Shown in pieces: positions 5,206 through 26,620 of a DNA stretch of 64,000 bases. The translations under genes were made by a program, and so were the position numbers. Source of the DNA: an uncultured Pseudomonadales bacterium (GTDB lineage Bacteria; Patescibacteriota; Microgenomatia; UBA1400; UBA1396); NCBI GenBank assembly GCA_964511175.1, contig CAZEEI010000003.1, positions 13,716 to 77,715 on the forward strand, read 5' to 3'. The notes under the pieces were generated by a model. That model saw only the letters and a program-made list of their open reading frames with translations. It was not told where the DNA came from and made no database searches. Each line of letters opens with the position of its first letter. Positions within the stretch are counted from its first letter, which is position 1.

Positions 5206-5910
5206 ATGAGTTCTACAGAGACAGACCGACCGGAAGTACAACACGAGGTAGAGGTGGTTCAAGAGGGATTCGATCAACGATTAATAGAATTCAGTTGGGC
5301 GGCCGATTTTCTCAAGCAAGAAGTTCCTGCCTACGTTGAGATTCAGAGTTATGAGCAACTGGCTAATCAATTTGTTGCAAAATTTGTCAGAGGTCAATTA
5401 ATTCAAAGGATGGGTGAATCCGGTCAGCCAACAATATCGGAGCTTAGAACAGAGGATTTGGCTGATCGATTTGCCAAGTGGTTTGCTCCGCTCATCGAGT
5501 TGATTGTTAAACAAAATTATCGTCCAAAGGGAGCTACGGTTTTGCAATTGACGCACGCTGATGTTCCAAAAACGCAACAAATAGCACTTGGCTTGGTGGC
5601 AGAATCTGGTGTGCATCCACCAATTGATGCAAGGATAAATACTGTCCTAAGTGATTTTTCCTGGATGAAAAAAGATCGCGTTGAGTCGACTATTGCGGTG
5701 CTAATTCGGGAATATAGCATCAATAATATTGGTCAACTAGAACGGGTGCTTCATGATCTTTTCATCAATCGTAGTAAAGGCACGCCCTCCAAACCAGTAT
5801 TGGGCGGTGAGGATTTTATGATTAAGCTATCTTCCGAATTACTTAAAGACCTTTACAGCCTTCCCTTTATTTTTACCAAGGCTTATGCCTCCCGGATATT
5901 AGCAAGCTAA
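5206..5910 (+). CDS. Hypothetical protein
   Basis: ORF of 234 aa with no motif I recognise. It lies between rpsI and dnaX. Confidence 0.5.
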   Translation: MSSTETDRPEVQHEVEVVQEGFDQRLIEFSWAADFLKQEVPAYVEIQSYEQLANQFVAKFVRGQLIQRMGESGQPTISELRTEDLADRFAKWFAPLIELIVKQNYRPKGATVLQLTHADVPKTQQIALGLVAESGVHPPIDARINTVLSDFSWMKKDRVESTIAVLIREYSINNIGQLERVLHDLFINRSKGTPSKPVLGGEDFMIKLSSELLKDLYSLPFIFTKAYASRILAS

Positions 5911-5954
5911 ACACCACTTAAGCTTCGTTTGCTCAATCTGCTAAGATACCCTCT

Positions 5955-7469
5955 GTGGCATGGTATCGCAAATATCGACCCCAACGCATTGCTGATTTGC
6001 AAATTAAGCCGGTACGTGAGCAGTTATTGGCTGTTTTGCAGTCTGGCCAGGTGGCTCACGCCTACTTATTTGCCGGACCCAAAGGTACAGGCAAAACTTC
6101 CGCCGCCCGCATTTTGGCGCGGGTTTTAAACGATCCCGCCAATGCTAAAGTGGTGCAACAGGGTAAGGGTAAATTGCGGGAACCAGATTCCGCCAATCCG
6201 CTGTTGGCGAGAATCGCGGCGGGGCAGTCGCAGGTGGTGATTGAGCTGGATGCGGCGAGCCACCGGGGCATAGACGACGTTCGCCATTTGCAAGAAATGA
6301 TTGCGGTAGCACCGGCCGAGGGGTTAGTGCGGGTGGTTATTCTCGACGAAGCACACATGTTAACCAACGAGGCTTTTAATGCTTTACTCAAGTCACTTGA
6401 GGAACCACCGGAACGGGTGATATTTGTTTTAGCTACGACCGAACCGCACCGGGTGCCGGTCACCATCCAGTCGCGCTGCGAAATGATCCAATTCCGCCAG
6501 GCCACCACCGCGGAAATCGAGGCGGTTTTAGAACAAGTAGCAGCTGGGGAAAAAATTAAGTTAACGGCCGAACAGATCAAGCTTTTAGCCGAAGCCGCCC
6601 AAGGTAGTTTTCGGGATGCAGTAAAGTATTTTGAGCAGGTGGCGCGCGGCGGGGCGGTGGATGATAGCCAACTTGCCCAGCTTACTTTTGGTCAGCAACG
6701 TTTAGCACTTTTACTACATGCCCTCGCCGCGCGCGATAGTGCCGCCGCCGTTCAGTTTTTTCAAGACGTACGGCAAAAAGGAGAAAATTGGTCGGCTTTA
6801 GAAGTGGCCATGGTGACCGCTCTACAGAATCGGCTGCACCGCGCCCTCATTCGCCAGGAAAAGAAATCGACGGCTCAAACCTTGGCGAGTTTACTCGATC
6901 ATTTAGTTCAGCGACTAGGCGGATCGGAGCCGGTAGATGGTATTAAGTTAGAGATTGCCTGTTTGACTTGGTGTCTTGGGGATGGGAAGGAGAGAGAATC
7001 CACTGAGTGTGATGAAGCAGACCAACCAGCCGCCACCGTGGCTTGCGCCCGTCCTATTCCCACCACTCAAACCACCTTAGCGGCGGCCAAGGAACAGGCT
7101 AAGGCTACTGCCCCACCCGTGACCGAATTACACCTTGATCCAGAGGAAGTTGCCGCTCGCTGGCCGCAAATTCTCTTGTTGGCCCGCACTAAGAGTCAAG
7201 TTTTGGAGGCAATTCTGCGCCAAGCCCAGCTGGGTACAATCGCTGATTCCCGTCTCGAACTGGTTTTTACCCACGGTTTCCACCAAGAGCAACTCAACAC
7301 ACCCAAATATCAGCTAGCTTTTTTGTCCGTGCTGGCGGAGGCCTTGGGCGAAGGGGCAAGTTTTGTTATTAGAGTACAGCCGCTGGAACCACCGGTAACA
7401 TCGGCCGCTAATCAGGGTAATGATTTATTACTCAAAGCGGTCGAGGAGGCTGTTTTGTCTCTCGACTAA
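5955..7469 (+). CDS. dnaX: DNA polymerase III subunit gamma/tau; GTG start
   Basis: AAA+ Walker A GPKGTGKTS, the clamp-loader box and a tau-type C-terminus. Confidence 0.92.
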   Translation: MAWYRKYRPQRIADLQIKPVREQLLAVLQSGQVAHAYLFAGPKGTGKTSAARILARVLNDPANAKVVQQGKGKLREPDSANPLLARIAAGQSQVVIELDAASHRGIDDVRHLQEMIAVAPAEGLVRVVILDEAHMLTNEAFNALLKSLEEPPERVIFVLATTEPHRVPVTIQSRCEMIQFRQATTAEIEAVLEQVAAGEKIKLTAEQIKLLAEAAQGSFRDAVKYFEQVARGGAVDDSQLAQLTFGQQRLALLLHALAARDSAAAVQFFQDVRQKGENWSALEVAMVTALQNRLHRALIRQEKKSTAQTLASLLDHLVQRLGGSEPVDGIKLEIACLTWCLGDGKERESTECDEADQPAATVACARPIPTTQTTLAAAKEQAKATAPPVTELHLDPEEVAARWPQILLLARTKSQVLEAILRQAQLGTIADSRLELVFTHGFHQEQLNTPKYQLAFLSVLAEALGEGASFVIRVQPLEPPVTSAANQGNDLLLKAVEEAVLSLD

Positions 7470-9300: not shown

Positions 9301-10533
9301 ATGGATATCTATAACACCTTAACACAATCGGTTGAAACCATTAGTAATCTACCAAACAAGAACAAATTTGGTGTTTATACTTGTGGTCCCACCGTTTACG
9401 ACTACGCCCACTTAGGTCATATGCGCAAGTACACTATGGATGACATTTTGCTGCGCACGCTGCGACTAGCCGGTTTTCCGGTTAAGCACGTTATGAACAT
9501 TACTGACGTCGGCCACCTGGTTTCTGATGCCGATACCGGCGAAGATAAAATGGAGAAAGGCGCCCGCCGGACGGGTAAAACCGTTTGGGAAGTGGCCAAG
9601 TTTTTTGAGGACGACTTCTGGCGTAAGTTTGATCTGATGGGTCTGATTCGCCCGGACATTGCGCCCCGCGCTACCGACCATATCCCGGAGCAGATCGAGT
9701 TAGTCCAAGCTTTGGAGAAAAATGGCTTCACCTACGTTATACCTGGCGATGGTGTGTATTTTGATACCAGTAAAGACCCACACTACGGTGAACTGGCCCA
9801 TCTTAAACTCAGTCAACAACAGGAGGGGGCGAGGATTGGTGTAGTTGAAGGTAAGCGCAATGCCAGCGATTTTGCCTTATGGAAGTTTTCACCTCAAGAT
9901 CAACAGCGACAAATGGAGTGGGAATCGCCTTGGGGGATTGGTTTCCCGGGTTGGCATATCGAATGTTCCGCTATGAGTATGAAATATTTGGGTTCGCAGT
10001 TCGCCCTACATACTGGTGGTATTGACCATATTCCCGTTCATCACCCTAACGAAATTGCTCAAGCCGAAAACGCCACCGGTAAAAGACCCTTTGTGCGTTA
10101 CTGGGTACACCACAACTTTTTGCGGATCGATGGACAAAAAATGAGTAAGTCTCTGCAGAACTTCTACACTTTGGAAGACATTGTGGCCAAAGGATTTTCA
10201 CCGATGGCTCTCAAATTGCTTTTCCTGCAGGCGCATTACCGTGACGAGCTGAACTTTACCTGGGACAGTTTGGCGGCGGCGCAAAAAGGTTACGAGCGGC
10301 TACAACGGCAGATCCAGAAATTACTGGCGGCGGCGGGTTACCAAAATCTCGAAGAAGTGCCAGATTTGGTGGGAGAACCATCGCCGGAACTGGCGCGCTT
10401 TATCGAGTTAATGGAAAATGACCTGAAGACGCCGCAGGCACTGGCGATCATGTGGGGAACGCTTAAGGGTGCCAGTTCAGCTGAGTTGCCGGATTTGAAG
10501 CGGATGTTGGGGTATTTTGGGTTAGAGGTATAG
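9301..10533 (+). CDS. cysS: Cysteinyl-tRNA synthetase (class I); short form of 410 aa
   Basis: HIGH-type motif (HLGHMR), KMSKS, and CysRS zinc-binding cysteines. Confidence 0.85.
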   Translation: MDIYNTLTQSVETISNLPNKNKFGVYTCGPTVYDYAHLGHMRKYTMDDILLRTLRLAGFPVKHVMNITDVGHLVSDADTGEDKMEKGARRTGKTVWEVAKFFEDDFWRKFDLMGLIRPDIAPRATDHIPEQIELVQALEKNGFTYVIPGDGVYFDTSKDPHYGELAHLKLSQQQEGARIGVVEGKRNASDFALWKFSPQDQQRQMEWESPWGIGFPGWHIECSAMSMKYLGSQFALHTGGIDHIPVHHPNEIAQAENATGKRPFVRYWVHHNFLRIDGQKMSKSLQNFYTLEDIVAKGFSPMALKLLFLQAHYRDELNFTWDSLAAAQKGYERLQRQIQKLLAAAGYQNLEEVPDLVGEPSPELARFIELMENDLKTPQALAIMWGTLKGASSAELPDLKRMLGYFGLEV

Positions 10534-10564
10534 TATTTTTGACCTTAACCTATGATATCTTGTG

Positions 10565-10578
10565 AATATCTAGATATT
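10565..10578 (+). promoter_or_regulatory. 14-bp palindrome AATATCTAGATATT in the hsdM upstream region; candidate operator
   Basis: Perfect core palindrome ATATCTAGATAT about 55 nt upstream of the hsdM start. The downstream HsdM carries an N-terminal HTH domain. Confidence 0.4.
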
Positions 10579-10633
10579 TACAAATCATATTTTTCTGCTA
10601 CAGTGAGCCCATGAGCAAACGAGCAGAAACAAT

Positions 10634-12340
10634 ATGAACAATTCCAACCAGCCCCAATCTCTCCTGTTAAGTATCGGTCAAGTAGCCAAAATCTTTGGTA
10701 TTCATCAAGATACCCTGAGGAATTGGGAAAAAAGGGGAATATTAACACCACTAAGGGTTGGGGCACGTAGAGATCGTCGTTACAAACAGGCAGACATTGA
10801 AAAGATTGTCGACAAAGACCTAGGCAGCTTGTTAGTCGAGATCAGCGAGCAAAAAATAACGCTCACGCAACTTAAACAATTTTTATGGAAAAGCGCCGAC
10901 ATTCTTAGGGGGAAAATCGACAGCAGTGATTATAAAAAGTACATCTTTGGGCTTTTATTTTACAAGCGAATCAGTGATACCTGGGACGAAGAATATCAGA
11001 TAACTCTGGATGAATATCATGATGAGGCGCTAGCCTTAGCTGACTATAATCACCGATTCCAAGTACCCAGGGATTGTCAGTGGTCAGTGATTACTGAGAC
11101 TTCAAAAAATATTGGGCAAAAACTAAACGACATTTTCGATAAGATTACTAATGTAAACAGCCCAAAACTAGATAAGATTTTTGCTGACCTTGACTTTGCC
11201 AACAAAGACCGCTTTCCAAATGAAACACTTCAACGACTAATTAACCACTTCTCTCAGTATAACTTTGGTAATACCTACATTAACTCTGATCTTCTAGGCG
11301 ATGCCTACGAGTACCTTATTGGCCAATTTGCAGCCGATGCAGGTAAGAAAGGCGGAGAATTCTATACCCCCCGCGAAGTTGAGCGCGTCATTATTAATAT
11401 TGTTAAGCCACATCAAAAGGACCACATCTATGACCCCACCGTAGGTTCAGGTGGCTTTCTTCTTGAGGCGTATAACTATCTTAAAAATAAGTCTGGAGAA
11501 CAGATTGCCCGCAGCCTATATCTCTATGGGCAAGAAATCAACCTCAGCACTTTTGCCATTGCCAAGATTAACATGTTCCTGCATGGACTGGATAGCGCCG
11601 ACATTAGGCGTGGTGATACACTGGCTAACCCGCAATTCCTTAACGATGTAGGCAATCTGCAAACCTTTGATATTGTTGTGGCTAATCCCCCATACTCCAT
11701 TAAGGATTGGGAGTTCGAACTATTCAAAAGTGACAAATATGGTCGAACGGAGGGTTTTGACCAGCCACCTAAAAAGAATGCTGATTACGCTTTTGTTCTC
11801 CATATTCTCAAGTCGATGAACGCCAATGGTCGGGCCGGGGTGGTATTACCGCACGGCGTTTTGTTTCGCGGCGGGAGTGAAGGGCGTATCCGTGAGCAAA
11901 TTATTAAAAGTGACCTTTTAGAGGCCATCGTGGCCCTGCCAGCTAAGCTATTCTATGGTACTGGTATTCCAGCCGCCATCCTGATCTTTAACAGAAACAA
12001 GCCGGAACATAAAAAGGGCAAGGTTCTCATTATTGATGGCGAACACGATTATTTGGAAGGTAAAAATCAAAATACGCTCAGGAAACAGGATATAGACAAA
12101 ATTGTTAAGGCTTATGACCAGTATGGGGATGCTGAAAAGTACGCCAAAGTAGTAGGTGTTAAAGAGATTGAAGAAAACGATTTCAACCTCAATGTCAGAC
12201 GCTACATTGACTCGACGGATGAGCAGGAAATGATTGATGTCAAGCAGGTTTGGAGTGAAATTAAACAGTTGGAAATAGAAAGAGACGAGATTGATAAAAA
12301 AGTGACAGGTTTTATTAAGGAGCTAGGCTATGACGATTAA
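10634..12340 (+). CDS. hsdM: Type I restriction-modification methyltransferase subunit HsdM, with an N-terminal MerR/excisionase-like HTH domain
   Basis: HTH at aa 10-60 (IGQVAKIFGIHQDTLRNWEKRG), then an HsdM_N-like helical domain and an N6-adenine methyltransferase with the NPPY motif (VVANPPYS). Confidence 0.9.
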   Translation: MNNSNQPQSLLLSIGQVAKIFGIHQDTLRNWEKRGILTPLRVGARRDRRYKQADIEKIVDKDLGSLLVEISEQKITLTQLKQFLWKSADILRGKIDSSDYKKYIFGLLFYKRISDTWDEEYQITLDEYHDEALALADYNHRFQVPRDCQWSVITETSKNIGQKLNDIFDKITNVNSPKLDKIFADLDFANKDRFPNETLQRLINHFSQYNFGNTYINSDLLGDAYEYLIGQFAADAGKKGGEFYTPREVERVIINIVKPHQKDHIYDPTVGSGGFLLEAYNYLKNKSGEQIARSLYLYGQEINLSTFAIAKINMFLHGLDSADIRRGDTLANPQFLNDVGNLQTFDIVVANPPYSIKDWEFELFKSDKYGRTEGFDQPPKKNADYAFVLHILKSMNANGRAGVVLPHGVLFRGGSEGRIREQIIKSDLLEAIVALPAKLFYGTGIPAAILIFNRNKPEHKKGKVLIIDGEHDYLEGKNQNTLRKQDIDKIVKAYDQYGDAEKYAKVVGVKEIEENDFNLNVRRYIDSTDEQEMIDVKQVWSEIKQLEIERDEIDKKVTGFIKELGYDD

Positions 12341-13154
12341 ACTAGTCATTTTTGAAGAAATCAAGCGCACCAATGAGTACCAATCAGAATATTGGTCGGC
12401 ACGGCAATTAGCCAGGGCTTTGGAGTATAAAGATTACCGCAATTTTGAAACGGTGCTTGGAAAAGCCAAAGAAGCGTGTAAAAACAGTGGTCAATCGGTA
12501 GAAGATCATTTCGGTGATGTCACCGACATGATCGAAGTCGGTAAAACTGCTTCACGAGAAATTAGTGATACCTATCTGTCCCGGTACGCTTGTTATTTGG
12601 TTGTACAAAATGCTGATCCGGCTAAAGAAATAGTCGCTTTGGGGCAAACCTATTTTGCGATCCAAACCAGAAAGCAAGAAGTTCAGGAGCAGCTTGTCGA
12701 AGATCAGAAACGATTGTTTTTGCGGGATGAAGTTACCACGCACAATAAACATCTGGCAGAAACGGCCTCTAAGGCTGGAGTGAAAAACTATGCTGTCTTT
12801 ACTAACTATGGCTATATGGGGTTATACGGTGGTTTGAAAGTGCAGGATCTCCACAAACAGAAGAGGCTTAAGAAGAGCCAGAAGATTTTAGATCACATGG
12901 GTAGTGAAGAGCTGGCAGCCAATTTATTCCGTGCTACTCAAACCGATGCCAAGATTAAGCGGGAGCAGATCCAAGGTGAGGCCAGAGCTAATCAAGCCCA
13001 TTTTGTTGTGGGCAGAAAGGTTAGGCAGACGATTGGAGAATTAGGCGGAACCATGCCGGAGAAGTTGCCAACTCCCGACGGGGTGGGACGGGCAAAGACT
13101 AGAGCTAATAAGTTGGCGGCGCAGAAGAGAAAAGAGTTGGAAAAGTCGACATGA
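12330..13154 (+). CDS. dinD: DinD/RhuM-family protein (DNA-damage-inducible protein D-like), embedded in the R-M operon
   Basis: Strong resemblance to DinD (..YWSARQLA..L.Y.D.RNF..VL.KA..AC..SG.....HF......YLSRYACYLVVQNADP..IALGQTYFAIQTR). Confidence 0.75.
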   Translation: MTIKLVIFEEIKRTNEYQSEYWSARQLARALEYKDYRNFETVLGKAKEACKNSGQSVEDHFGDVTDMIEVGKTASREISDTYLSRYACYLVVQNADPAKEIVALGQTYFAIQTRKQEVQEQLVEDQKRLFLRDEVTTHNKHLAETASKAGVKNYAVFTNYGYMGLYGGLKVQDLHKQKRLKKSQKILDHMGSEELAANLFRATQTDAKIKREQIQGEARANQAHFVVGRKVRQTIGELGGTMPEKLPTPDGVGRAKTRANKLAAQKRKELEKST

Positions 13155-14341
13155 AAAACCAAATGACAAGCAACTGGCAGGCAAAGCAAATTAAGGACTT
13201 GCTCGATTACGAGCGTCCTGATAAATATATTGTTGAAAACACATACTATATTGACTCAGGAACTCCAGTGCTGACCGCTAATAAATCCTTTATTTTGGGT
13301 TATACAGATGAAGAAACAGGTATCTACGATAATGTACCCGCAATAATTTTTGATGATTTTACAACAGACAGTAAATTTGTTGATTTTCCTTTCAAAGTTA
13401 AGTCATCCGCAATTAAAATTCTAAAAGAAAAAAGCAAAGAGGTGGATATAAGGTTTGTATTTGAGAGAATGAAATCCATCAATTTCCCTACAGGAAATCA
13501 TAAGCGATATTATATCTCTCAATACCAAAACATGAAGATTGCAGTACCCTCTTTGCCTATTCAGAAAAAAATATCCAACATTCTTTCTACTATTGATGAA
13601 GCTATTCAAAAAACGGATCAAATAATCAAAAAAACTAAAAAACTCAAGCAAGGGCTAATGAACGAATTACTAACGAAGGGTATTGGGCATAAAAAGTTTA
13701 AAAAGACAAAAATCGGTGAGATTCCTAAAAAGTGGAAAGTAACTTCTATTCTGGATTCTGATATACAAATCATTGACGGCGATAGAGGCCTTAGCTATCC
13801 CAACAAGAACGATTTTTCTAATGAAGGATATTGCTTATTCTTAAGCGCTAGAAATTTTATTGATGATCATTTTGATTTTAGAGAATACGTCTTTATTTCT
13901 AAAGAAAAAGATAATCAACTGAGAAAAGGCAAACTGAAAAAAGGGGATGTCGTTCTCACTACAAGAGGTACTGTTGGAAGTGTGGCAATTTATAATGATT
14001 CAGTTCCATTTGAGGACATTAGAATTAACTCAGGAATGTTAATTTTTCGTGCAGAGGGTGAAATCGACAATAATTTCCTTTATTTTTTACTAAAAAGTCC
14101 GTACTTTAAGGAAAGATATAATCAGTTGGGGTCTGGTTCAGCGCAACCTCAACTTCCGATTAGGAGTTTAAGAAATCTATTAATACCAATACCTACTATT
14201 GACGAACAGCGCGAAATAGCGAGCAAATTATCTTTTTTGGATTTAAAACATGATAAAGAAATTGCACAATTATTGAACTTAAAAATGCTTAAGAGTGGCT
14301 TGATGTACGATATTTTTAACCAGAAAGTACAAATTAACTAA
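13151..14341 (+). CDS. hsdS: Type I restriction-modification specificity subunit HsdS
   Basis: Two target-recognition domains separated by conserved coiled-coil spacers. Very AT-rich. Confidence 0.85.
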   Translation: MKNQMTSNWQAKQIKDLLDYERPDKYIVENTYYIDSGTPVLTANKSFILGYTDEETGIYDNVPAIIFDDFTTDSKFVDFPFKVKSSAIKILKEKSKEVDIRFVFERMKSINFPTGNHKRYYISQYQNMKIAVPSLPIQKKISNILSTIDEAIQKTDQIIKKTKKLKQGLMNELLTKGIGHKKFKKTKIGEIPKKWKVTSILDSDIQIIDGDRGLSYPNKNDFSNEGYCLFLSARNFIDDHFDFREYVFISKEKDNQLRKGKLKKGDVVLTTRGTVGSVAIYNDSVPFEDIRINSGMLIFRAEGEIDNNFLYFLLKSPYFKERYNQLGSGSAQPQLPIRSLRNLLIPIPTIDEQREIASKLSFLDLKHDKEIAQLLNLKMLKSGLMYDIFNQKVQIN

Positions 14342-14342
14342 T

Positions 14343-15215
14343 ATGAGTACATCAAGTAGATTTGACCAATTTTTAAGCAATATCAAACTAACATCTGATC
14401 AACTTGCCGATGCAAAGACTAAGTACGATGGAGTCTGTAAAAAAATACATGATCATTACTATTCGAGTGACTATGATGGTTCTACAAAACTACTTATTGG
14501 TTCTTATGGAAAGAGAACAAATATCCGTCCAGCACGAGATGTAGATGTGATTTTCATGCTTCCAGCCTCTGAATACAAACAATCAACAAATGATTATAAT
14601 TACCAGTCTTCTCTACTGCAAAAGATAAAACGCATTTTAGAAGAAAAATACCCCGATACTGACATTTGTGGCGATGGACCAGTTGTTGTCGTTAATTTTA
14701 GTAACAATCATTTTATTGAAGTAGTTCCTGCCATTGAGTTAACAAATGACAAATTTTATATTCCTTCTACAAGTAGTGGTGGCTACTGGAAGCTTGACGA
14801 CCCTCGAGCTTTATATAGGTTCATCAACGACTCAGACAATAACACCAACGGTAACACACGAAATCTTATCCGTATGATAAAAAAATGGCAGGACTCTTGT
14901 AATGTTCCAGTTAAGTCACTTGTTATAGAAATCAGAGCAGTATTATTTTTAATTGATTATGAATACAAAGATAAAGGTTCTACATACTATGACTGGATGA
15001 TTAGAGATTATTTCAAACAACTCATCGAGAAAACCAACAACACATATATTTTACCTGGATTAACCGAGAAAATTTATTACGGTGATGCTTGGAAATCAAA
15101 AGCAAAGACAGCTTATGCTCGTGCAATAAAAGCCTGTCAGTATGAGTCAGATAAAGAAGAAACATTAGCGGCCGAAGAATGGAAGAAAATATTCGGTGAA
15201 GACTATTGGTATTAA
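14343..15215 (+). CDS. cGAS/DncV-like (SMODS-type) Pol-beta superfamily nucleotidyltransferase
   Basis: hGSYGKRTNIRPARDVDVIFML gives the GS...DxD catalytic pattern, and a third acidic residue lies in the strand HFIEVVPA. The gene sits 1 nt after hsdS and is followed by an overlapping 2-TM partner. Confidence 0.65.
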   Translation: MSTSSRFDQFLSNIKLTSDQLADAKTKYDGVCKKIHDHYYSSDYDGSTKLLIGSYGKRTNIRPARDVDVIFMLPASEYKQSTNDYNYQSSLLQKIKRILEEKYPDTDICGDGPVVVVNFSNNHFIEVVPAIELTNDKFYIPSTSSGGYWKLDDPRALYRFINDSDNNTNGNTRNLIRMIKKWQDSCNVPVKSLVIEIRAVLFLIDYEYKDKGSTYYDWMIRDYFKQLIEKTNNTYILPGLTEKIYYGDAWKSKAKTAYARAIKACQYESDKEETLAAEEWKKIFGEDYWY

Positions 15216-15790
15216 ATATGGACAAAACAAATTTAGAAGTTATCAGGGAGTCTTTCGGCAAAGTTTGCTACTCTCACAAAACTCACGAAAAGGACTGCGA
15301 AATACAATCTAGGTACGCAACAATGGTGAAGTGGGTAAATATCGCTCTAATTGCCACCACGACAGGATCATTACTTAGCACATTGCTTGCTGATCAAAAC
15401 CTGATTGTTGTCAGTGCTATTTTTTCCTCCATCACGCTAGGTTTCAGCATTTTTCAAATCAGCTTTAATCCAGAAAAAAAGGCAGCGAGGTACAAACAGG
15501 TAGCTAACTCCCTGTGGCTTATTAGAGAAAAATACGTAAGCCTAATGGCCGATATTATTAACTCAAGTGTTAAGGAGAAAGAAATTATTAAACGCAGAGA
15601 CGAATTGATGAATGAACTTGATTTTCTTTATAAAGCTGCACCAAGCACCAGTAGCTCTGCATACGAAAAGGCTGGGGTTGCTCTACAGTTAAACGAGGAG
15701 CTTACATTTTCTGATAAAGAAATTAATCAATTCCTCCCAAATAGTTTGCATATTACGAGTCCAAAAAAGAATAAGCATTATGAAATTTAA
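15206..15790 (+). CDS. Two-transmembrane SLATT-like putative effector
   Basis: Two hydrophobic helices (WVNIALIATTTGSLLSTLL and LIVVSAIFSSITLGFSIFQISF) followed by a charged helical tail. Start and stop both overlap neighbouring genes, so it is translationally coupled to the nucleotidyltransferase and to hsdR. Confidence 0.55.
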   Translation: MVLNMDKTNLEVIRESFGKVCYSHKTHEKDCEIQSRYATMVKWVNIALIATTTGSLLSTLLADQNLIVVSAIFSSITLGFSIFQISFNPEKKAARYKQVANSLWLIREKYVSLMADIINSSVKEKEIIKRRDELMNELDFLYKAAPSTSSSAYEKAGVALQLNEELTFSDKEINQFLPNSLHITSPKKNKHYEI

Positions 15791-18719
15791 CGAACAGCAC
15801 ACCGTCGAAAATCATATCATCAAGTTTCTATCCATAACTCTTGGCTATGAGTACATCAAGCCAGAGGAGTTTGCCCTTTTGCGGGAGCTTGAAAACCAGT
15901 ATTTGGTTACTTCACACCTGGCAGAAGCCATTAAACAGATCAACAACCTAACCGATGATACCGAAGTGCAAAGTGTTATCAGAGAAATAAAGAAGATTGA
16001 CTCCAATGAGGGCTTCTTAGACCTGATGAGAAACGGGGTCAATCTCAAGGATCCTTCGACGGGCAAGACGAAGGATTACGCGGTTGTTGACGCCGACAAT
16101 CCCGAAAATAATCGTTTTGTCGTTACTAATCAATTTTATTTTGAAGGTAATCTGGAAAACATCAGAACCGATGTGATGGTTTTCTTGAATGGTATCCCTG
16201 TAGTCGATATCGAGGCCAAAAGCCCCACTGCCTCAACTAGTGTTAGTTACGAGAACGCCATTGGCCAGATCAAACGCTATGAGAGAGCGGCCATGAAACT
16301 CTTTTGGCCCAATATGTTTAATATAGCTACTGATGGATTAAAGACTGTTTATGGTACTACTTACGCCCCAGATCAGTATTTTCTGCAATGGCGTGATGAT
16401 GAGCTTGAAAAGAAACTAGGCAGACAATTAGAGATGACTTTGGCGGCACTATTGGACAAAGAGAGATTATTGGACATTATCAAGAACTTTATTCTTTTTG
16501 AACAAACCAAAGATGGCCGCATTAAAAAGATGGCTCGTTATCAGCAGTTAAGGGCCACCAATAAGATTCTGGAGCGAGTACGGGGTGGCGAAAAAAGACG
16601 TGGCTTAGTTTGGCATACTCAGGGTTCCGGCAAGTCACTCACGATGTTTTTCACTGCGTGGAAGCTAAGGTTTTCTAAAGAATTGAAGAATCCTAAGGTT
16701 TTTATATTAGTAGATCGAATTGACCTTGATGACCAGATTTATGACACGTTCGTCAATGCAGGCGGCACAAACGTTATACGAGTGACTTCTAGGCGTGATC
16801 TTCAGGAAAAAATCACCAATGATGAGCGAGGTATCTTTATCTCGACCATCGAAAAATTCAACGAACTGCCGCTTGATTTAGACAATCCTAATGAGAACAT
16901 TATTGTCCTTTCTGATGAAGCGCACCGGACTAACGAGGGTGTGGCGGCGATTAAATTGCGGGATTCTATGGGAAAGGCATTTTTCTTTGGCTTTACCGGT
17001 ACACCGATTGACAAAAAAACACTCAATACTCATCGTAATTTTGGTCAAGAGGGTGAGAGGTATTTGGATTATTACTCAATTCAGCAGGCTATTGATGATG
17101 GGGCAACCCTGCCGGTCACCTATGAAGCAAGGTTATCTAAATTTTTTATTAACGAGGATCGAATTGATGAGCAATTCGACGCAGTAACACAGGATCTCAG
17201 TGCAGAACAAAAACAGCTAATTATGAGGCGCTTTGGTAAGAAAGAGGCCTTGATCAAACTCGATCAACGGATGAGGATCATTGCTCAGGATATTATTGAT
17301 CACTATAGGCTTTATATTGAACCCAATGGTTTCAAAGCGCAAATTGTCTGCTATGACCGGGAAGAGACGGCTAAATATAAACAATTGCTGGATGAGCTGG
17401 TGTCCCCCGAATGTACGGCGGTGGTGTATTCATCTGGAGATCCAAATACAGATAGTGAGCGCTTGCGCGAGTACAACACGACTAAATCTCAGCGTGAACA
17501 GATAATTGCTTCTTTTAAGGATCCAAATAGTTCTCTCAAATTGCTTCTGGTCTGTGACATGCTTTTAACCGGTTTTGATGCGCCAATTGAGCAGGCAATG
17601 TACCTGGACAAGCCTCTAAGAGACCATAATTTACTACAAGCAATTGCTCGGACAAACCGTACTTATCCTCATAAGGGTTGTGGCAAAATTATTGACTACT
17701 ACGGCATTACGCGCAATCTCTATGATGCTCTTAATTTTGACGAGAGCATCATTGATTCAGCTTTGATTGATCTTGATTATTTGAAGCAGGAGTTTCTCGA
17801 AATACTGGGTGAAATTAAAGATATTTTTGTTGGCATCAATCAGGAAGATCCGTCCATCAACAACCTCAGAGTTTGTCTGAAAATTTTTATTGATAATGAG
17901 GATAAGCAGAGATTCTTTACCGACAAGTATTCCAGGATGAAGCTATTATTTGAGGTATTATCTCCCGATCCTTTCTTGGGTGAATATATTCGCATTTTTG
18001 AGTGGATTACTAGTGTTTATATTGCTTTTGTCAATGAGTTTCGATCGGAAAACTTGGCAATGAACGCTTTTAGGAATGGTGATATTCCCACTTTTGGTGA
18101 ATATGGGGAAAAAGTCAAAAAACTTATTCAAGACAATCTGGATTATGAGGGCATTACCAAAAACTTTCGAGAATTAAATATTAATGATATTTACACTCTC
18201 GAGCGTCTGGACAAAATGGATGATGAAGAAAAAGCACTAGCACTCGAAAAAATGCTCAGCCAGGAAATTACAGCCAATCTTGACACAGACCCCACTTTTC
18301 AGAAGTTTAGTGAAAGACTTAGAGCCATTCGTGAGGAGTTTGAGCATCATCAGATTGATCTTTCGGAACGAATTAAACGCTATTACGAGTTAATGAATGA
18401 CATTAAAAATAAAAATGACTTGGCTAAAGAACTGGGACTAAATCTGAGAGAATACGGTTTATATCTAATTTGTCAGGAATATATACCAGAAACTTCTCAA
18501 TCAGTGTTAACCGATTTATCTAGAGATTTGTCAAGAAGAATAGAATCAATTCTCGACGTAGATTGGCAAACCTCCTCAAAACGTGAGGAATTTTTGAAAG
18601 GTATTAAACAGGCAATACAAGAGGTTATTTTAAGGGATTATCGGGGAAGAATTAAAGTAGGTGCTTTCCCCAAAATGCTCAATAGGTTGGTGGATATAAC
18701 TTTTAAAAAATTTACCTAG
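15780..18719 (+). CDS. hsdR: Type I restriction enzyme R subunit HsdR
   Basis: SF2 helicase motifs (TQGSGKSLTMFF, DEAHR), the ResIII/HsdR family and a long C-terminal domain. Confidence 0.92.
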   Translation: MKFNEQHTVENHIIKFLSITLGYEYIKPEEFALLRELENQYLVTSHLAEAIKQINNLTDDTEVQSVIREIKKIDSNEGFLDLMRNGVNLKDPSTGKTKDYAVVDADNPENNRFVVTNQFYFEGNLENIRTDVMVFLNGIPVVDIEAKSPTASTSVSYENAIGQIKRYERAAMKLFWPNMFNIATDGLKTVYGTTYAPDQYFLQWRDDELEKKLGRQLEMTLAALLDKERLLDIIKNFILFEQTKDGRIKKMARYQQLRATNKILERVRGGEKRRGLVWHTQGSGKSLTMFFTAWKLRFSKELKNPKVFILVDRIDLDDQIYDTFVNAGGTNVIRVTSRRDLQEKITNDERGIFISTIEKFNELPLDLDNPNENIIVLSDEAHRTNEGVAAIKLRDSMGKAFFFGFTGTPIDKKTLNTHRNFGQEGERYLDYYSIQQAIDDGATLPVTYEARLSKFFINEDRIDEQFDAVTQDLSAEQKQLIMRRFGKKEALIKLDQRMRIIAQDIIDHYRLYIEPNGFKAQIVCYDREETAKYKQLLDELVSPECTAVVYSSGDPNTDSERLREYNTTKSQREQIIASFKDPNSSLKLLLVCDMLLTGFDAPIEQAMYLDKPLRDHNLLQAIARTNRTYPHKGCGKIIDYYGITRNLYDALNFDESIIDSALIDLDYLKQEFLEILGEIKDIFVGINQEDPSINNLRVCLKIFIDNEDKQRFFTDKYSRMKLLFEVLSPDPFLGEYIRIFEWITSVYIAFVNEFRSENLAMNAFRNGDIPTFGEYGEKVKKLIQDNLDYEGITKNFRELNINDIYTLERLDKMDDEEKALALEKMLSQEITANLDTDPTFQKFSERLRAIREEFEHHQIDLSERIKRYYELMNDIKNKNDLAKELGLNLREYGLYLICQEYIPETSQSVLTDLSRDLSRRIESILDVDWQTSSKREEFLKGIKQAIQEVILRDYRGRIKVGAFPKMLNRLVDITFKKFT

Positions 18720-18867: not shown

Positions 18868-21801
18868 CTAAGGCCGATACTTGAGTTCTTCCACCAGGTA
18901 CCTACCGGTTTCCGACAACGGATTCTGAGCAACCTGCGCCGGACTGCCGGCCGCTACGACACGACCGCCATCATCGCCGCCGCCGGGACCCAAGTCAATC
19001 AGCCAATCGGCATTCTTGATCACGTCCAGATTATGTTCGATTAGTACTACCGAATTACCCTGGCGAATTAATTTATCCAGCACGTCCAGGAGTTTGCGAA
19101 CGTCTTCAAAATGGAGGCCGGTGGTTGGTTCGTCCAGCAGGTAGAGTGTATGGACAGTGGTGTTGGTAGTGAGTTCTTTGGCCAATTTGACGCGCTGGGC
19201 TTCACCGCCGGAAAGAGTGGGAGCCGGCTGACCAAGCTTAATGTAACCCAGGCCAACCTCGAGCAGAGTCTGTAGCTTCTGCTGCACTTTTTTATAGTGG
19301 GCAAAAAACTGGGCTGCTTCTTCAATAGTCATTGCTAAAACTTCGGCAATCGTCTTGTCGTGGTAGTGTACTTCCAGGGTTTCACGGTTGTAACGACTGC
19401 CGTGGCAAACGTCGCAATCCACGTAAATATCTGGCAAAAACTGCATTTCGATCTTAACCTGACCCTCACCCTGACAAGCTTCACAGCGACCGCCCTTGAC
19501 GTTGAAACTAAAGCGACCTGGTTTGTAGCCGCGCTCCTTGGCGTCATGAGTCTCGGCAAAAACTTCGCGGATGAGATCAAAAACTTTGGTGTAGGTTGCA
19601 GGGTTGGAGCGCGGCGTACGGCCGATCGGGCTCTGGTCAATTAGAGCTAGCCGCTTAATGTTTTCGTAGCCGTTAATTGCTGTCACCGGACCAGGTGTGG
19701 CGGTCGAAACGCGATCAAGAAGTAGGAGCAGGTTTTGGTAAAGAGTGTCGTAGAGCAGGGTTGATTTACCGGAGCCGGATAAGCCGGTGATGCAGGTGAG
19801 CTGGTGCAGCGGGATTTCGACCGTCAGATTTTGCAAATTATGGGCAGTAGCGCCGTGGATCATCAGTGATTTTCCCCGCTGGCTAAGCGGTTGAGTGCGC
19901 GGTGCCAACCAAATGTCTTGTCGCCGGCTCAGGTAGGCGCCGGTGAGGGATTTTTTGTTTTTAATGATATCGGCTGGTTCGCCTTGGGCAATAACGTGAC
20001 CGCCGTGAACACCGGCGCCGGGGCCAAAGTCAATCAGTTGGTCGCTGGTTAACATGACATCGCGGTCGTGTTCGACTACCACTACCGTGTTGCCCAAATC
20101 ACGCAAGTGTTTGAGCGTAGTAATTAGCCGATGGTTATCTTTTTGGTGCAAGCCGATGGTTGGTTCATCCAAAACATACAGGACGCCGGAAAGACCGGTG
20201 CCGATTTGCGAGGCCAGGCGAATACGCTGCGCTTCGCCGCCAGCTAAGGTATTGGCTTCCCGCGCGAGCGTCAGGTAGGACAACCCCACGGATACCAGGA
20301 AGTTAAGGCGGGTAATGATTTCTTTAGCAATCGGTTCCACCACCTGACGCTCGCGCGCGGTTAAATCCAAGTTTTGTTCCAGCAGATTACTGATCCAAGT
20401 TAAAGCTTCGTTGATGCTAAATTCGGTAACGTCCGCAATCGACAGATCTCCAATGGTGACTGCTAAACTTTCCGGTTTAAGCCGTCGGCCCTGACAATCG
20501 GGACAAGCGTTTTTTTGCATAAAACGTTCAATTTCCTGTCGAATATAGTCGGAACTGGACTCGCGGTAGCGCCGTTCTAAATTAGGAATGAATCCCTCAA
20601 AGTTTTCCCGGATCAGGGTTTCTTCACCAAAGCGGTTGGTGCCGCGGACGGTATAAACTGTATCGCTGCCGTACATTAACTCCTGCTGTAACTCGGCCGC
20701 CAGATCGCGCCAGGGTTTACGCCAATCTTCGCCATACTCTTCGACAATTGTACGTACAATGCGGGCAAACCAAGTATCGCTCTCCAGCATGCGGGCAAAG
20801 GGAATGATGGCTCCTTCCGACAGGGTGAGACTGGGTGCAATCAGTTTGTTTAACTCAATAGCCAGAATAGTCCCCAAGCCGCTGCAGCGGGCGCAGGCGC
20901 CGTGGGGCGTGTTAAATGAGAACATCCGCGGTTCAATTTCTGGTACCGGCAAGCCGGTGCTGGGGTAGACGCGTTTTTCCGTGAATTCGCGCCGCTCGAG
21001 TTTTTTAGGATGATCAGGAAAAGTCAGGCCGGCATCCAGGACGAAGGCCACATCCACCCAACCATCGGATAGGGCCAGGGCTTGTTCGATGTCACCGTTA
21101 AGGCGTGATCGGAGGGCGTGTTGCTCACTGGTGTCGGCGAGTTGTTGGGAAGAGATCACCACCCGGTCGACAATGGCAGCGATGGCGTGTTTATTATTTT
21201 TGAATAAAGTAATTTCGTCACGCAAATCATAGAGATCACCATCGATTAGCGCCTGGGAATAACCCTTCTGGCGTAGGTTGGCGAACAGCGATTGGAATTC
21301 GCCCTTGCGATCTTTAATGACTGGTGCCAGGACGAGGAAGCGGACGGGGGCTTCAATCGCGCGCCGGCCGACCTCAGCAAACAGTTCGTCCAGGATTTGA
21401 TCCAAGGAAAAAGGCATCACTTCTTCACCGGTCTGCGGGTCGTGCGGTCGGCCGGCGCGCGCAAACAGCAGCCGCAAATAATCGTAAACTTCCGTAATTG
21501 TGCCGACGGTAGAGCGCGGGTTATGGGAAGTAGTTTTTTGATCGATCGAAATAGCTGGTGACAGGCCGGTAATACTTTCAACTTTAGGCTTTTGCATCAC
21601 GCCTAAAAACTGGCGCGCGTAAGCGGAAAGCGATTCTACATAACGCCGCTGCCCTTCGGCGTATAACGTGTCAAAAGCAAAAGAAGATTTGCCCGAACCA
21701 GACAAGCCGGTGACTACTACCAGTTTATTCTTGGGAATATCCAAATCGATGTTCTGGAGGTTATGTTCTTGCGCCCCGCGCACACTAATTAAGTCGGCCA
21801 T
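18868..21801 (-). CDS. uvrA: Excinuclease ABC subunit A
   Basis: Two ABC ATPase modules (GLSGSGKSS and GLSGSGKST) plus zinc fingers. Full length, 977 aa. Confidence 0.95.
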
Positions 21802-26011: not shown

Positions 26012-26620
26012 ATGATTGCCACTGCACCCGAACGAATTCGACTTGATTATTCTCTCGATCCGTTGAAGCAGGCCTTAGAGGCGTATTCTCCAGAACAGCT
26101 GCTGGTTTTATACCGCGGTCGCGACAAAGGTGCTGAAGAGGGCAGTAACTTAAACTGGACGATTGATCCGTTTTATGCTCTTTTTCACGCCGGAATATGG
26201 GGAGTGGATGATTATCCAGATAACTACGGCACACTAAGTTATACGGTTGCGCCGCTAACCAAAACAATCAGTTTTGATTCCCGTACCAGTTCTTACCGAA
26301 TCTTATCTTTACCATGGGGCAGCCGCCAATTAGTGCCTGGAGAAATACAGCGCTTATTAAACTGGCGAATTATTACTAGCCAGCAAGAAGCCCTGGTTGA
26401 GCCGGAACTGCGCCAAGCGATTGGTCGTGGTGGTGTAATTGGGGTTGATTGGCCCCAATCAGAAACCGCTAAAATCGAAGCCGATCGGCTTCGCTCACAA
26501 CTATTGTACCGCACGTTAATGTCGAATGACCCCTTGGCCGACCAAGCTTGGCAGCAAGTTCTACCAAACGCTTCACTTGATTTATTAAGATTAATTGCCG
26601 CCAAATATAATCAGCATTAA
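26012..26620 (+). CDS. Hypothetical protein
   Basis: 202-aa ORF with no recognised motif. Confidence 0.45.
   Translation: MIATAPERIRLDYSLDPLKQALEAYSPEQLLVLYRGRDKGAEEGSNLNWTIDPFYALFHAGIWGVDDYPDNYGTLSYTVAPLTKTISFDSRTSSYRILSLPWGSRQLVPGEIQRLLNWRIITSQQEALVEPELRQAIGRGGVIGVDWPQSETAKIEADRLRSQLLYRTLMSNDPLADQAWQQVLPNASLDLLRLIAAKYNQH

What the first reader, a model, noticed from the sequence alone, without database searches (positions are those of the whole stretch)
10565..10830. HsdM with a fused N-terminal MerR/excisionase-type HTH, and a perfect palindrome (AATATCTAGATATT) in its promoter: a candidate built-in controller of the R-M operon
Type I HsdM normally begins with the HsdM_N helical domain. 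Here about 60 residues of a classic HTH (IGQVAKIFGIHQDTLRNWEKRGILTP) come before it. A 14-bp palindrome sits about 55 nt upstream of the start, in the right place for an operator. This would be a C-protein-like autoregulation solution, fused to the methyltransferase rather than encoded as a separate controller. Tight control would matter for an operon that also carries an abortive-infection module.
Basis: partly seen in the sequence, partly recalled or inferred. Interest (0 to 1): 0.6.

Follow-up and report, generated by a model that had tools for sequence, protein, structure and literature searches.

The report
HsdM with fused regulator domain

Summary
hsdM (10634-12340) encodes a MerR/HTH_17-type winged helix at aa 11-60, ahead of HsdM_N and N6_Mtase. 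The domain is translated, under purifying selection, and present in all 120 closest homologues, which are Patescibacteria (CPR) proteins.

The 14-bp palindrome (10565-10578) exists but is not supported as an operator:
- The window holds about as many such palindromes as shuffled sequence does.
- It is absent from all 203 loci fetched.
- It contains no copy of the conserved unit described below.

What is conserved is a tandem direct repeat, ACCTATGAAA-ACCTATGAA, with a 10-bp period. It sits 2-17 nt upstream of a near-consensus -35. It is found upstream of 58 of 58 HTH-bearing hsdM loci and 1 of 20 HTH-less ones. In the window it lies at 10548-10567, with the second unit degenerate, and it is the only strong match in 64 kb.

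The domain's best structural match is BldC, a monomeric MerR-like protein that binds direct repeats head-to-tail.

Best reading: HsdM autoregulates, probably represses, the whole hsd and defence-cargo operon through this repeat. It is a Type I counterpart of the fused-HTH Type II methylases (SsoII/Ecl18kI) and of the separate repressor RptR. Binding and its sign are inferred, not shown.

The parts
10548..10567 (+). Candidate operator: a tandem direct repeat with a 10-bp period. Unit 1 is ACCTATGATA (10548-10557) and matches the consensus. Unit 2 is TCTTGTGAAT (10558-10567) and is degenerate, with core CTTGTGAA against CCTATGAA.
   Evidence: A 22-nt matrix built from orthologous promoters, window excluded, scores 18.0 bits at 10547-10568. 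The next best score in 64 kb on both strands is 3.9 bits. With a single-unit matrix, unit 1 scores 14.4 bits and unit 2 less than 2. The motif is conserved in orthologues while the flanks carry about 0 bits.
10565..10578 (.). It fills the gap between the repeat and the -35, overlapping 3 nt of unit 2 and 2 nt of the -35.
   Evidence: Present. Not enriched. Absent from 203 loci. No similar sites in the window beyond chance. Weak all-A/T hairpin, -3.5 kcal/mol.
10577..10604 (+). Predicted promoter: -35 TTTACA (10577-10582), a 16-nt spacer, and an extended -10 TGcTACAGT (10596-10604).
   Evidence: It is the only promoter-like site in the spacer. It has the same geometry as orthologues, namely repeat, gap, TTGACA, 16-17 nt, -10. 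The window gap is 10 nt, as in its closest relatives.
10611..10637 (+). An 8-codon leader ORF (MSKRAETI). It starts 6 nt after the -10, and its TGA overlaps the hsdM ATG (ATGA).
   Evidence: Read from the sequence. In 21 orthologous promoters an ATG lies 4-8 nt after the -10, a leaderless-like geometry. Function not tested.
10634..12340 (+). hsdM, 568 aa, with the fused N-terminal HTH.
   Evidence: TIGR00497 hsdM 280 bits (cut-off 242.75). Pfam domains. NPPY motif at aa 351.
10664..10813 (+). MerR/HTH_17-type winged helix-turn-helix (aa 11-60), BldC-like. It is followed by a low-confidence linker (aa 61-79, 10814-10870).
   Evidence: AlphaFold model with pLDDT about 85 over aa 11-60. Best Foldseek hits are the BldC-DNA complexes 6AMA and 6AMK (33% identity, rmsd 1.8-1.9 A). 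Residues D26, T27, L28, N30, W31, E32, G35, R41, R45, D47, R48 and Y50 are invariant.
12330..13154 (+). dinD-like Bro-N protein, optional cargo.
   Evidence: NF008573 DinD 371 bits. PADLOC PDC-S13. A DinD match is seen in 12 of the 83 related loci compared.
13151..14341 (+). hsdS specificity subunit.
   Evidence: Pfam Methylase_S. Only 21-68% identical among related loci (25-68% among the HTH-type loci), so specificities differ.
14343..15790 (+). CBASS-like cargo: an SMODS cyclase (14343-15215) and a SLATT_4 two-transmembrane effector (15206-15790).
15780..18719 (+). hsdR restriction subunit. It is the last gene of the operon, and all the genes overlap or abut.
   Evidence: Pfam HSDR_N, SWI2_SNF2 and T1RH-like_C. 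No excess of internal promoter-like sites.

Best explanation
HsdM is a bifunctional methylase and regulator. Its N-terminal BldC-like winged helix, joined by a linker of about 20 residues, binds the tandem direct repeat (consensus ACCTATGAAA-ACCTATGAA) immediately upstream of the -35 of the single operon promoter. One domain probably binds each 10-bp unit on one face of the helix. The two domains could come from the two HsdM subunits of an M2S1 complex, or from cooperative head-to-tail binding as in BldC.

Occupancy feeds back on transcription of the whole operon: hsdM, dinD, hsdS, the SMODS-SLATT pair and hsdR. I favour auto-repression. That would give a burst of expression on arrival in a naive cell, followed by a low steady state.

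The palindrome is incidental.

Shown here:
- the domain, its conservation and its fold;
- the conserved repeat and its fixed position next to the promoter;
- the co-occurrence of the repeat with the HTH.

Inferred:
- that this HTH is what binds the repeat;
- the stoichiometry;
- the sign of regulation.
For: 1. Domain. Three Pfam HTH models pass their cut-offs. PDB sequence hits are MerR-family proteins and BldC. The AlphaFold core is confident, with BldC-DNA complexes as best structural hits and Pukovnik Xis also matched. BldC's phosphate-contacting residues T27 and W31 and its wing arginine R48 are conserved, while its base-contacting K26 and R30 are replaced by D26 and N30 (contacts from PMC5859096).

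2. Cis element. Information content is confined to about 18 nt, with flanks near 0 bits, although synonymous sites are saturated.

3. Position. The repeat is always on the coding strand, 2-17 nt upstream of TTGACA/T with a 16-17-nt spacer. Where an extra gene is inserted, the repeat stays with the promoter and not with hsdM.

4. Co-occurrence. 58 of 58 HTH loci against 1 of 20 HTH-less loci. The HTH-less set includes two CPR relatives that are 73-81% identical in the methylase body but have lost both the HTH and the repeat.

5. Independent sample. Among 104 metagenome loci holding the exact 19-mer with enough downstream sequence, 43 of the 45 in which a -35-like hexamer follows have HTH-hsdM downstream.

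6. Not the methylation target. HsdS varies from 25 to 68% identity while the repeat stays constant.

7. Precedent. BldC binds direct repeats head-to-tail as a monomeric MerR-like domain (PMC5859096). Fused-HTH methylases auto-repress by steric exclusion (PMC2760811). RptR represses a Type I island through direct repeats (PMC12255303).

8. For repression rather than activation. The promoters are near-consensus, and the gaps between repeat and -35 (about 3, 9 and 15 nt) are not in helical phase.
Against: - There are no binding or expression data.
- In this window the second unit is degenerate. Only unit 1 scores as a single site, so regulation here may be weak or altered. L008 shows the same decay.
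- A site at about -40 to -60 is also where activators bind, and BldC can activate as well as repress (PMC6428758).
- The 58/58 count is partly circular, because the matrix was trained on 51 of those loci. The loci are also related by descent and by horizontal transfer of one cassette.
- The two HTH-less CPR controls are only two.
- The full-length model was too poor to say anything about the geometry of the two HTH domains.
Confidence: 0.65

Rival explanations
1. One reading: the HTH, as a dimer, binds the 14-bp palindrome AATATCTAGATATT, which acts as the operator.
For: The palindrome is perfect, lies next to and overlaps the -35, and has a local chance probability of about 0.009. HsdM is dimeric in M2S1 (established knowledge), so two-fold symmetry is conceivable.
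Against: It is absent from all 203 loci, including the 88%-identical L081. The window-wide count equals the shuffle expectation. Its right arm aligns with ordinary spacer plus -35 sequence in relatives. It contains no conserved unit. The domain lacks the MerR dimerisation helix, and its closest fold binds direct repeats.
Confidence: 0.05
2. The same HTH-repeat pairing, but as positive autoregulation. HsdM bound at about -40 to -60 would recruit RNA polymerase, giving a feed-forward switch.
For: The repeat lies where class I and class II activators and UP elements act. BldC activates some targets (PMC6428758). The window's own -35 (TTTACA) and -10 (TACAGT) are weaker than those of its relatives.
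Against: Most family promoters are near-consensus TTGACA-17-TATAAT/TAGACT and should not need an activator. The gaps of about 3, 9 and 15 nt are not phased by helical turns. The known regulatory methylases and RptR are repressors (PMC2760811, PMC12255303).
Confidence: 0.2
3. The HTH and the repeat are not partners. The repeat would be a promoter or UP-like element, or the site of a host factor. The HTH would serve another purpose, such as general DNA tethering of the methylase or an excisionase-like role in moving the cassette.
For: HTH_17 is the excisionase family, and Xis is among the structural hits. The cassette is clearly mobile among CPR lineages. The same HTH type is fused to many unrelated enzymes.
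Against: The repeat travels with the HTH across hosts labelled as many different CPR phyla, and is lost together with it. It has invariant C and G positions, unlike A/T-rich UP elements. No integrase flanks the island; cysS and uvrA do. The excisionase model TIGR01764 scores below its cut-off (20.1 against 28.8 bits).
Confidence: 0.1

Closest known systems
Regulatory Type II C5-methyltransferases with a fused N-terminal HTH (M.SsoII, M.Ecl18kI, M.EcoRII)
   Same: A region of about 70 residues containing an HTH is fused by a flexible linker to the methylase. It binds an operator at the system's own promoter, so one polypeptide both methylates and regulates (PMC3978073, PMC2760811, PMC12707154 section 11).
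   Different: Those are monomeric Type II cytosine-5 enzymes. Their operator lies between the R and M promoters, and the switch works by promoter competition. Here the enzyme is a Type I N6-adenine HsdM that works as M2S1, the HTH is of the MerR/BldC type, the conserved element is a tandem direct repeat upstream of the -35, and one promoter drives M, S, R and cargo together.
RptR repressor of Type I R-M defence islands (PMC12255303)
   Same: It provides transcriptional control of a Type I hsd operon with embedded defence cargo, through an array of direct repeats in the single island promoter.
   Different: RptR is a separate small all-helical dimer encoded as the first ORF. Its repeats each contain the palindrome TAGCTA and overlap the -10. 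Here the regulator is part of HsdM and the repeats lie upstream of the -35.
BldC (Streptomyces), PDB 6AMA and 6AMK
   Same: It is the best structural match. It is a minimal MerR-type winged helix without a dimerisation helix, it shares DNA-backbone-contacting residues (T27, W31 and the wing arginine R48), and it binds tandem direct repeats head-to-tail (PMC5859096).
   Different: BldC is a free-standing 68-residue global developmental regulator that recognises AATT-N4-C units. Here the domain is fused to an enzyme, the base-contacting positions differ (D26 and N30 in place of K26 and R30), and the unit is CCTATGAA.
C (controller) proteins of Type II R-M systems
   Same: Autogenous control of a restriction-modification operon by an HTH that binds next to or over the -35.
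   Different: C proteins are separate Xre/lambda-cI-type dimers that bind palindromic C-boxes and are usually co-transcribed with the endonuclease gene (PMC2175313, PMC12707154).

Membership tests
Type I R-M methyltransferase subunit HsdM | HsdM_N helical domain followed by a gamma-class N6-adenine methylase domain with the NPPY motif | tested here: met
   PF12161 at aa 80-206, PF02384 at aa 218-532, TIGR00497 at 280 bits against a cut-off of 242.75. NPPY at aa 351.
Type I R-M methyltransferase subunit HsdM | Encoded with hsdS and hsdR | tested here: met
   hsdS at 13151-14341 and hsdR at 15780-18719, in the same overlapping gene string.
Type I R-M methyltransferase subunit HsdM | M2S1 assembly and N6-adenine methylation of a bipartite site | not testable with these tools
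   Requires biochemistry or methylome data.
Canonical MerR-family regulators | N-terminal winged HTH of the MerR type | tested here: met
   PF13411 and PF00376 pass their cut-offs. MerR-family structures are among the sequence and fold hits.
Canonical MerR-family regulators | Long coiled-coil dimerisation helix and a C-terminal effector-binding domain | tested here: not met
   The wing is followed by a low-confidence linker and then HsdM_N. The NCBIfam equivalogs (MerR, CueR, ZntR, SoxR) match the N-terminal HTH region only (aa 12-72 at most) and score far below their cut-offs.
Canonical MerR-family regulators | Palindromic operator inside an over-long (19-20 bp) -35/-10 spacer | tested here: not met
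   The spacer is 16 nt here and 16-17 nt in relatives. The conserved element is a direct repeat upstream of the -35.
BldC family | Minimal MerR-like winged helix lacking a dimerisation domain | tested here: met
   The top Foldseek hits are 6AMA and 6AMK, with TM 0.67-0.74 normalised to BldC and 33% identity. phmmer E = 0.002. NF033787 HTH_BldC scores 27.9 bits, which is below its cut-off of 77.
BldC family | Free-standing small protein of about 70 residues | tested here: not met
   The domain is fused to a 490-residue methylase.
BldC family | Cooperative head-to-tail binding to tandem direct repeats | not testable with these tools
   A conserved tandem repeat with a 10-bp period is present. 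Binding itself is only inferred.
Fused-HTH regulatory methyltransferases (SsoII/Ecl18kI/EcoRII type) | N-terminal HTH region fused to the methylase through a linker | tested here: met
Fused-HTH regulatory methyltransferases (SsoII/Ecl18kI/EcoRII type) | Type II cytosine-5 methylase whose operator lies between the R and M promoters | tested here: not met
   This is an N6-adenine Type I HsdM with a single promoter and all genes co-directional.
Fused-HTH regulatory methyltransferases (SsoII/Ecl18kI/EcoRII type) | Demonstrated auto-repression | not testable with these tools
   Requires EMSA and reporter assays.
C proteins | Separate small Xre-type HTH protein with palindromic C-boxes | tested here: not met
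   There is no separate regulator ORF. The HTH is of the MerR type, and the only palindrome is not conserved.
Excisionase / recombination directionality factor | Small HTH_17 protein acting with an adjacent integrase at att sites | tested here: not met
   TIGR01764 scores 20.1 bits against a cut-off of 28.8. The island is flanked by cysS and uvrA, with no recombinase.
RptR-controlled Type I islands | rptR homologue as the first ORF of the island | not tested
   No RptR sequence was available for comparison. No separate ORF lies between the promoter and hsdM apart from the 8-codon leader.

The most novel reading that the evidence does not exclude
The HTH makes HsdM a one-component sensor, with promoter occupancy depending on what the methylase is doing. 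That could be free HsdM against M2S1 or R2M2S1, or engagement on unmethylated DNA, as reported for M.EcoRII. Expression of restriction and of the embedded abortive-infection cargo would then rise during phage attack or on entry to a new host.

The operator is the same in cassettes with different HsdS specificities. A resident HsdM would therefore cross-regulate any incoming cassette of the family, giving immunity or exclusion between Type I cassettes in CPR communities.
Probability: 0.15. Interest if true: 0.75.

Novelty: new variant of a known kind. Interest (0 to 1): 0.55.

Why it matters
Type I systems are textbook cases of post-translational control. A 2025 review notes 'surprisingly little information' on their transcriptional regulation (PMC12707154, section 20). 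The first dedicated repressor of a Type I island, RptR, was described only in 2025 (PMC12255303).

Here a large and well conserved HsdM clade in Patescibacteria carries the regulator inside the methylase, and the comparative data point to a precise 18-20-bp candidate operator. The idea can therefore be tested directly with a short peptide and an oligonucleotide.

The same promoter drives interchangeable defence cargo (CBASS-like pairs, a TIR protein, an OLD-like ATPase), so the module would control a whole defence island.

It also corrects database gene calls that begin inside the operator.

Tried and rejected
- Palindrome as operator: rejected. Not conserved, no enrichment, no unit match.
- Palindrome as a third degenerate repeat unit: no support. 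The single-unit matrix scores below 2 bits.
- Palindrome as the cysS terminator or an RNA element: rejected. No terminator-like site, a weak A/T hairpin of -3.5 kcal/mol, and no Rfam match.
- Repeat as the methylation target: rejected, because HsdS varies while the repeat is constant.
- Repeat bound by the DinD/Bro-N cargo protein: rejected. A DinD match is seen in only 12 of the 83 related loci compared.
- Separate HTH gene (split form): the one candidate examined, P0123 in L204, is an hsdM broken into three ORFs, probably by frameshifts.
- Search with the N-terminal 70 residues in the word-indexed protein database: uninformative, only 3 fragments.
- Full-length AlphaFold model: too poor to use, mean pLDDT 49.5.
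- BLASTP of the HTH against BldC: no alignment. phmmer, Foldseek and MAFFT did align them.
- Co-variation between HTH residues and T/G variants of the unit: inspected by eye only. The recognition helix DTLRNWE is invariant, so there was no signal.
- Literature: six full-text searches found no description of an HTH-HsdM fusion. A 2026 preprint on CPR methyltransferases mentions neither MerR nor HTH. The library covers open-access papers only.
Full report
WHAT IS IN THE SEQUENCE. The region lies at the left edge of an 8.3-kb, lower-G+C island (32-46% against about 50% in the flanks). The island sits between cysS (9301-10533) and uvrA (18868-21801, minus strand). The closest named CysS homologues are from Woesebacteria and other Patescibacteria, so the host is a CPR bacterium.

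The island is one string of overlapping or abutting genes:
- hsdM, 10634-12340
- a DinD/Bro-N protein, 12330-13154
- hsdS, 13151-14341
- an SMODS cyclase, 14343-15215
- a SLATT_4 two-transmembrane effector, 15206-15790
- hsdR, 15780-18719

Internal promoter-like sites are no more frequent than in shuffled sequence. The 100-nt spacer 10534-10633 is therefore the obvious control region.

THE HTH IS REAL.
- The only ORF across the region starts at ATG 10634. The frame is closed upstream of 10607.
- MerR_1, MerR and HTH_17 all exceed their Pfam gathering scores at aa 11-60. HsdM_N follows at aa 80-206 and N6_Mtase at aa 218-532.
- Every PADLOC Type I methylase profile starts matching only at aa 72-81. 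The first 70-80 residues are thus extra compared with ordinary HsdM.
- Against 59 orthologues, the HTH codons show pN 0.24 against a saturated pS of 0.87. The domain is translated and constrained.
- D26, T27, L28, N30, W31, E32, G35, R41, R45, D47, R48 and Y50 are invariant in a sample of 24 sequences.
- An AlphaFold model of aa 1-80 has pLDDT of about 85 over aa 11-60, with the order strand, helix, helix, two-strand wing, long helix.
- Its best Foldseek matches in the PDB are the BldC-DNA complexes 6AMA and 6AMK (33% identity, rmsd 1.8-1.9 A). MerR-family regulators and mycobacteriophage Pukovnik Xis follow. The Foldseek E-values are weak, about 0.01, because the domain is short.
- Sequence search of the PDB gives BrlR, TnrA and BldC.
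- In a MAFFT alignment, BldC's backbone-contacting residues T27 and W31 and its wing arginine R48 are conserved. Its base-contacting K26 and R30 correspond to D26 and N30 (BldC contacts from PMC5859096). This means the same way of gripping DNA but a different target sequence.

THE FUSION IS A FAMILY TRAIT.
- All 120 best database hits (74-100% identical) carry MerR plus HsdM_N plus N6_Mtase, apart from one entry whose HTH falls below the precomputed threshold. The named ones are Patescibacteria.
- In one genome per GTDB species, about 60 loci encode the fused form. Their record titles name many CPR phyla.
- The next relatives are proteobacterial, 43-50% identical, and begin at the equivalent of aa 64-75 without an HTH.

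THE PALINDROME DOES NOT HOLD UP.
- AATATCTAGATATT is at 10565-10578, exactly as described.
- The window contains five perfect palindromes of 14 bp or more. Dinucleotide shuffles give 4.35 +/- 2.3.
- No related site occurs in the window beyond chance.
- The sequence is absent from all 203 loci fetched. That includes L081, whose HsdM is 88% identical.
- Its right arm, AGATATTTAC, lines up with ordinary spacer plus -35 sequence in L002 and L003 (AGATATTTATTGACA).

WHAT IS CONSERVED INSTEAD. Lining up the sequence upstream of the orthologues revealed a tandem direct repeat, ACCTATGAAA-ACCTATGAA, with a 10-bp period.
- In 47 non-redundant promoters, information content is confined to about 18 positions, at 1-2.5 bits each. 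The flanks are near zero, although synonymous sites in the adjacent gene are saturated.
- The repeat is always on the coding strand.
- It lies 2-4 nt (33 loci), 8-11 nt (17 loci) or 13-17 nt (8 loci) upstream of a near-consensus TTGACA/T. A 16-17-nt spacer and a -10 follow.
- Where an extra gene is inserted between promoter and hsdM (L005, L012, L020, L030, L039, L081), the repeat stays with the promoter.
- A matrix built without the window finds one outstanding site in the 64 kb: 18.0 bits at 10547-10568, with the next best at 3.9 bits.
- In the window, unit 1 (10548-10557) matches the consensus. Unit 2 (10558-10567, core CTTGTGAA) is degenerate and scores below 2 bits on its own. L008 shows the same decay.
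- The window's predicted promoter is TTTACA (10577-10582), a 16-nt spacer, then TGcTACAGT (10596-10604). This places the window in the 8-11-nt gap class, with its closest relatives.
- The palindrome simply occupies that gap.

LINK BETWEEN THE HTH AND THE REPEAT.
- With a threshold of 8 bits, 58 of 58 HTH-bearing loci have the repeat upstream. Only 1 of 20 HTH-less loci does (L062, a borderline 11.4 bits).
- Two caveats apply. The matrix was trained on 51 of the 58 loci, and the loci are evolutionarily related.
- More telling are L041 and L051. These are CPR relatives 81% and 73% identical in the methylase body. They start exactly at the end of the linker and have no repeat.
Of these, 104 had at least 260 nt downstream.
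- Among the 45 of those loci in which a -35-like hexamer follows within 25 nt, 43 have HTH-hsdM downstream. The other occurrences are microsatellite-like arrays or unrelated contexts.
- HsdS identity ranges from 25 to 68% among the HTH-type loci, so the constant repeat is not the methylation target.
- A DinD match is seen in only 12 of the 83 related loci compared, and the other cargo is rarer still, so these proteins cannot be the binding partner.

MECHANISM. BldC is a monomeric MerR-like winged helix that binds tandem direct repeats head-to-tail and cooperatively (PMC5859096). A BldC-like domain paired with a conserved 10-bp-period direct repeat is a coherent match.

I infer that two HsdM N-terminal domains occupy the two units and modulate RNA polymerase access. 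The two domains could come from the two M subunits of M2S1, or from cooperative binding.

I favour repression, at roughly 3 to 1 over activation, for three reasons:
- The family's promoters are close to consensus.
- The gaps of about 3, 9 and 15 nt are not phased by whole helical turns.
- The known analogues are repressors. M.Ecl18kI excludes polymerase sterically (PMC2760811), and RptR represses a Type I island through direct repeats (PMC12255303).

Activation cannot be excluded. The site occupies classic activator territory, and BldC can do both (PMC6428758).

COMPARISON AND NOVELTY.
- Methylases with a fused regulatory HTH are known, but they are Type II cytosine-5 enzymes (PMC12707154 section 11, PMC3978073).
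- Transcriptional control of Type I systems is described as little known (PMC12707154 section 20). The one dedicated Type I repressor, RptR, is a separate protein.
- Six full-text searches and a 2026 CPR methyltransferase preprint gave no description of an HTH-HsdM fusion or its operator. The library covers open-access papers only.
- The proteins themselves are in public databases, annotated simply as HsdM.
- I therefore rate this a new variant of a known kind. It is not a canonical MerR regulator, since it lacks the dimerisation and effector domains and the spacer operator. It is not a C protein. It is not an excisionase, since no integrase is present and the model scores below its cut-off.

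LIMITS.
- Nothing here shows binding or its sign.
- The window's own operator is half-decayed.
- The full-length structure prediction failed (pLDDT 49.5).

Noticed in passing
window 10605-10637: An ATG at 10611, six nt after the predicted -10, opens an 8-codon ORF (MSKRAETI). Its TGA (10635-10637) overlaps the hsdM ATG (10634) as ATGA. In 21 orthologous promoters an ATG lies 4-8 nt after the -10, which suggests leaderless transcripts. In the window, hsdM may be translated by termination-reinitiation. The leader begins ATGAGCAAA, like the hsdM start of L002 and L003 (MSKS...).
   Followed up: partly
P0106, P0108, P0115, P0116, P0120 (581-aa gene calls); e.g. L018 5896-5960: Five database gene calls start at the ATG inside operator unit 1 (CCT ATG AAA ACC TAT GAA gives MKTYEHLTLYL...). 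They read through the repeat, the -35 and the -10. They are probably over-extended by 20 codons.
   Followed up: partly
window 12330-15790; L081 2045-5529; L082 5694-9704; L204 1821-2706: The hsd operon carries interchangeable defence cargo between hsdM, hsdS and hsdR. The window, L007 and L040 carry SMODS plus SLATT. L081 carries a CD-NTase plus Cap15. L082 carries KilA-N, DUF3800 and an OLD-like ATPase. L204 carries a ThsB-type TIR protein. A DinD/Bro-N (PADLOC PDC-S13) match is seen in 12 of the 83 related loci compared.
   Followed up: partly
P0124, P0127, P0133 and others: The same BldC-like HTH occurs as tandem arrays of 2-8 copies within single proteins. It is also fused to unrelated enzymes: an N6_N4 DNA methylase (P0181), a HAD hydrolase (P0150), a PAS histidine kinase (P0267), and large proteins with a Peptidase_S74 domain. 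Arrays of domains would suit arrays of direct repeats.
   Followed up: partly
L012 1723-1839; L020 5784-5900; L030 5784-5900; L039 2446-2580: A conserved, very basic 38-residue ORF (MAKTKTSAYGKQKQKIVPVRGYVKNGKRVKPHRRSTPN) lies between the repeat-bearing promoter and hsdM in four loci.
   Followed up: no
L053 about 172-220; L055 about 5908-5956: In these divergent relatives the operator region holds an extra inverted copy of the same unit. This forms a palindrome with 13-bp arms (CTCTTCCTATGTTAGCAACATAGGAAGAG) followed by a direct copy (GTTAGGAA). The arrangement of units can therefore vary between lineages.
   Followed up: no
L081 62-348: In the closest relative (88% identical HsdM) the repeat and promoter lie 287 nt upstream of hsdM. 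The intervening stretch is G+C-rich and begins with an ATG 7 nt after the -10. It looks like an inserted or decayed gene.
   Followed up: no
L204 108-1770: hsdM is split into three ORFs (HTH 62 aa, HsdM_N 186 aa, N6_Mtase 286 aa) behind a canonical repeat and promoter. The cause is probably frameshifts or sequencing errors.
   Followed up: partly
P0078, P0089 (780-783 aa): Two homologues carry the HTH, HsdM and also a Methylase_S domain in one polypeptide, that is, M-S fusions.
   Followed up: no
window 26476-26493, 35669-35684, 20747-20760, 48767-48780: These are the window's other perfect palindromes of 14-18 bp, for example CGAAGCCGATCGGCTTCG. They were seen while counting the background rate.
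   Followed up: no
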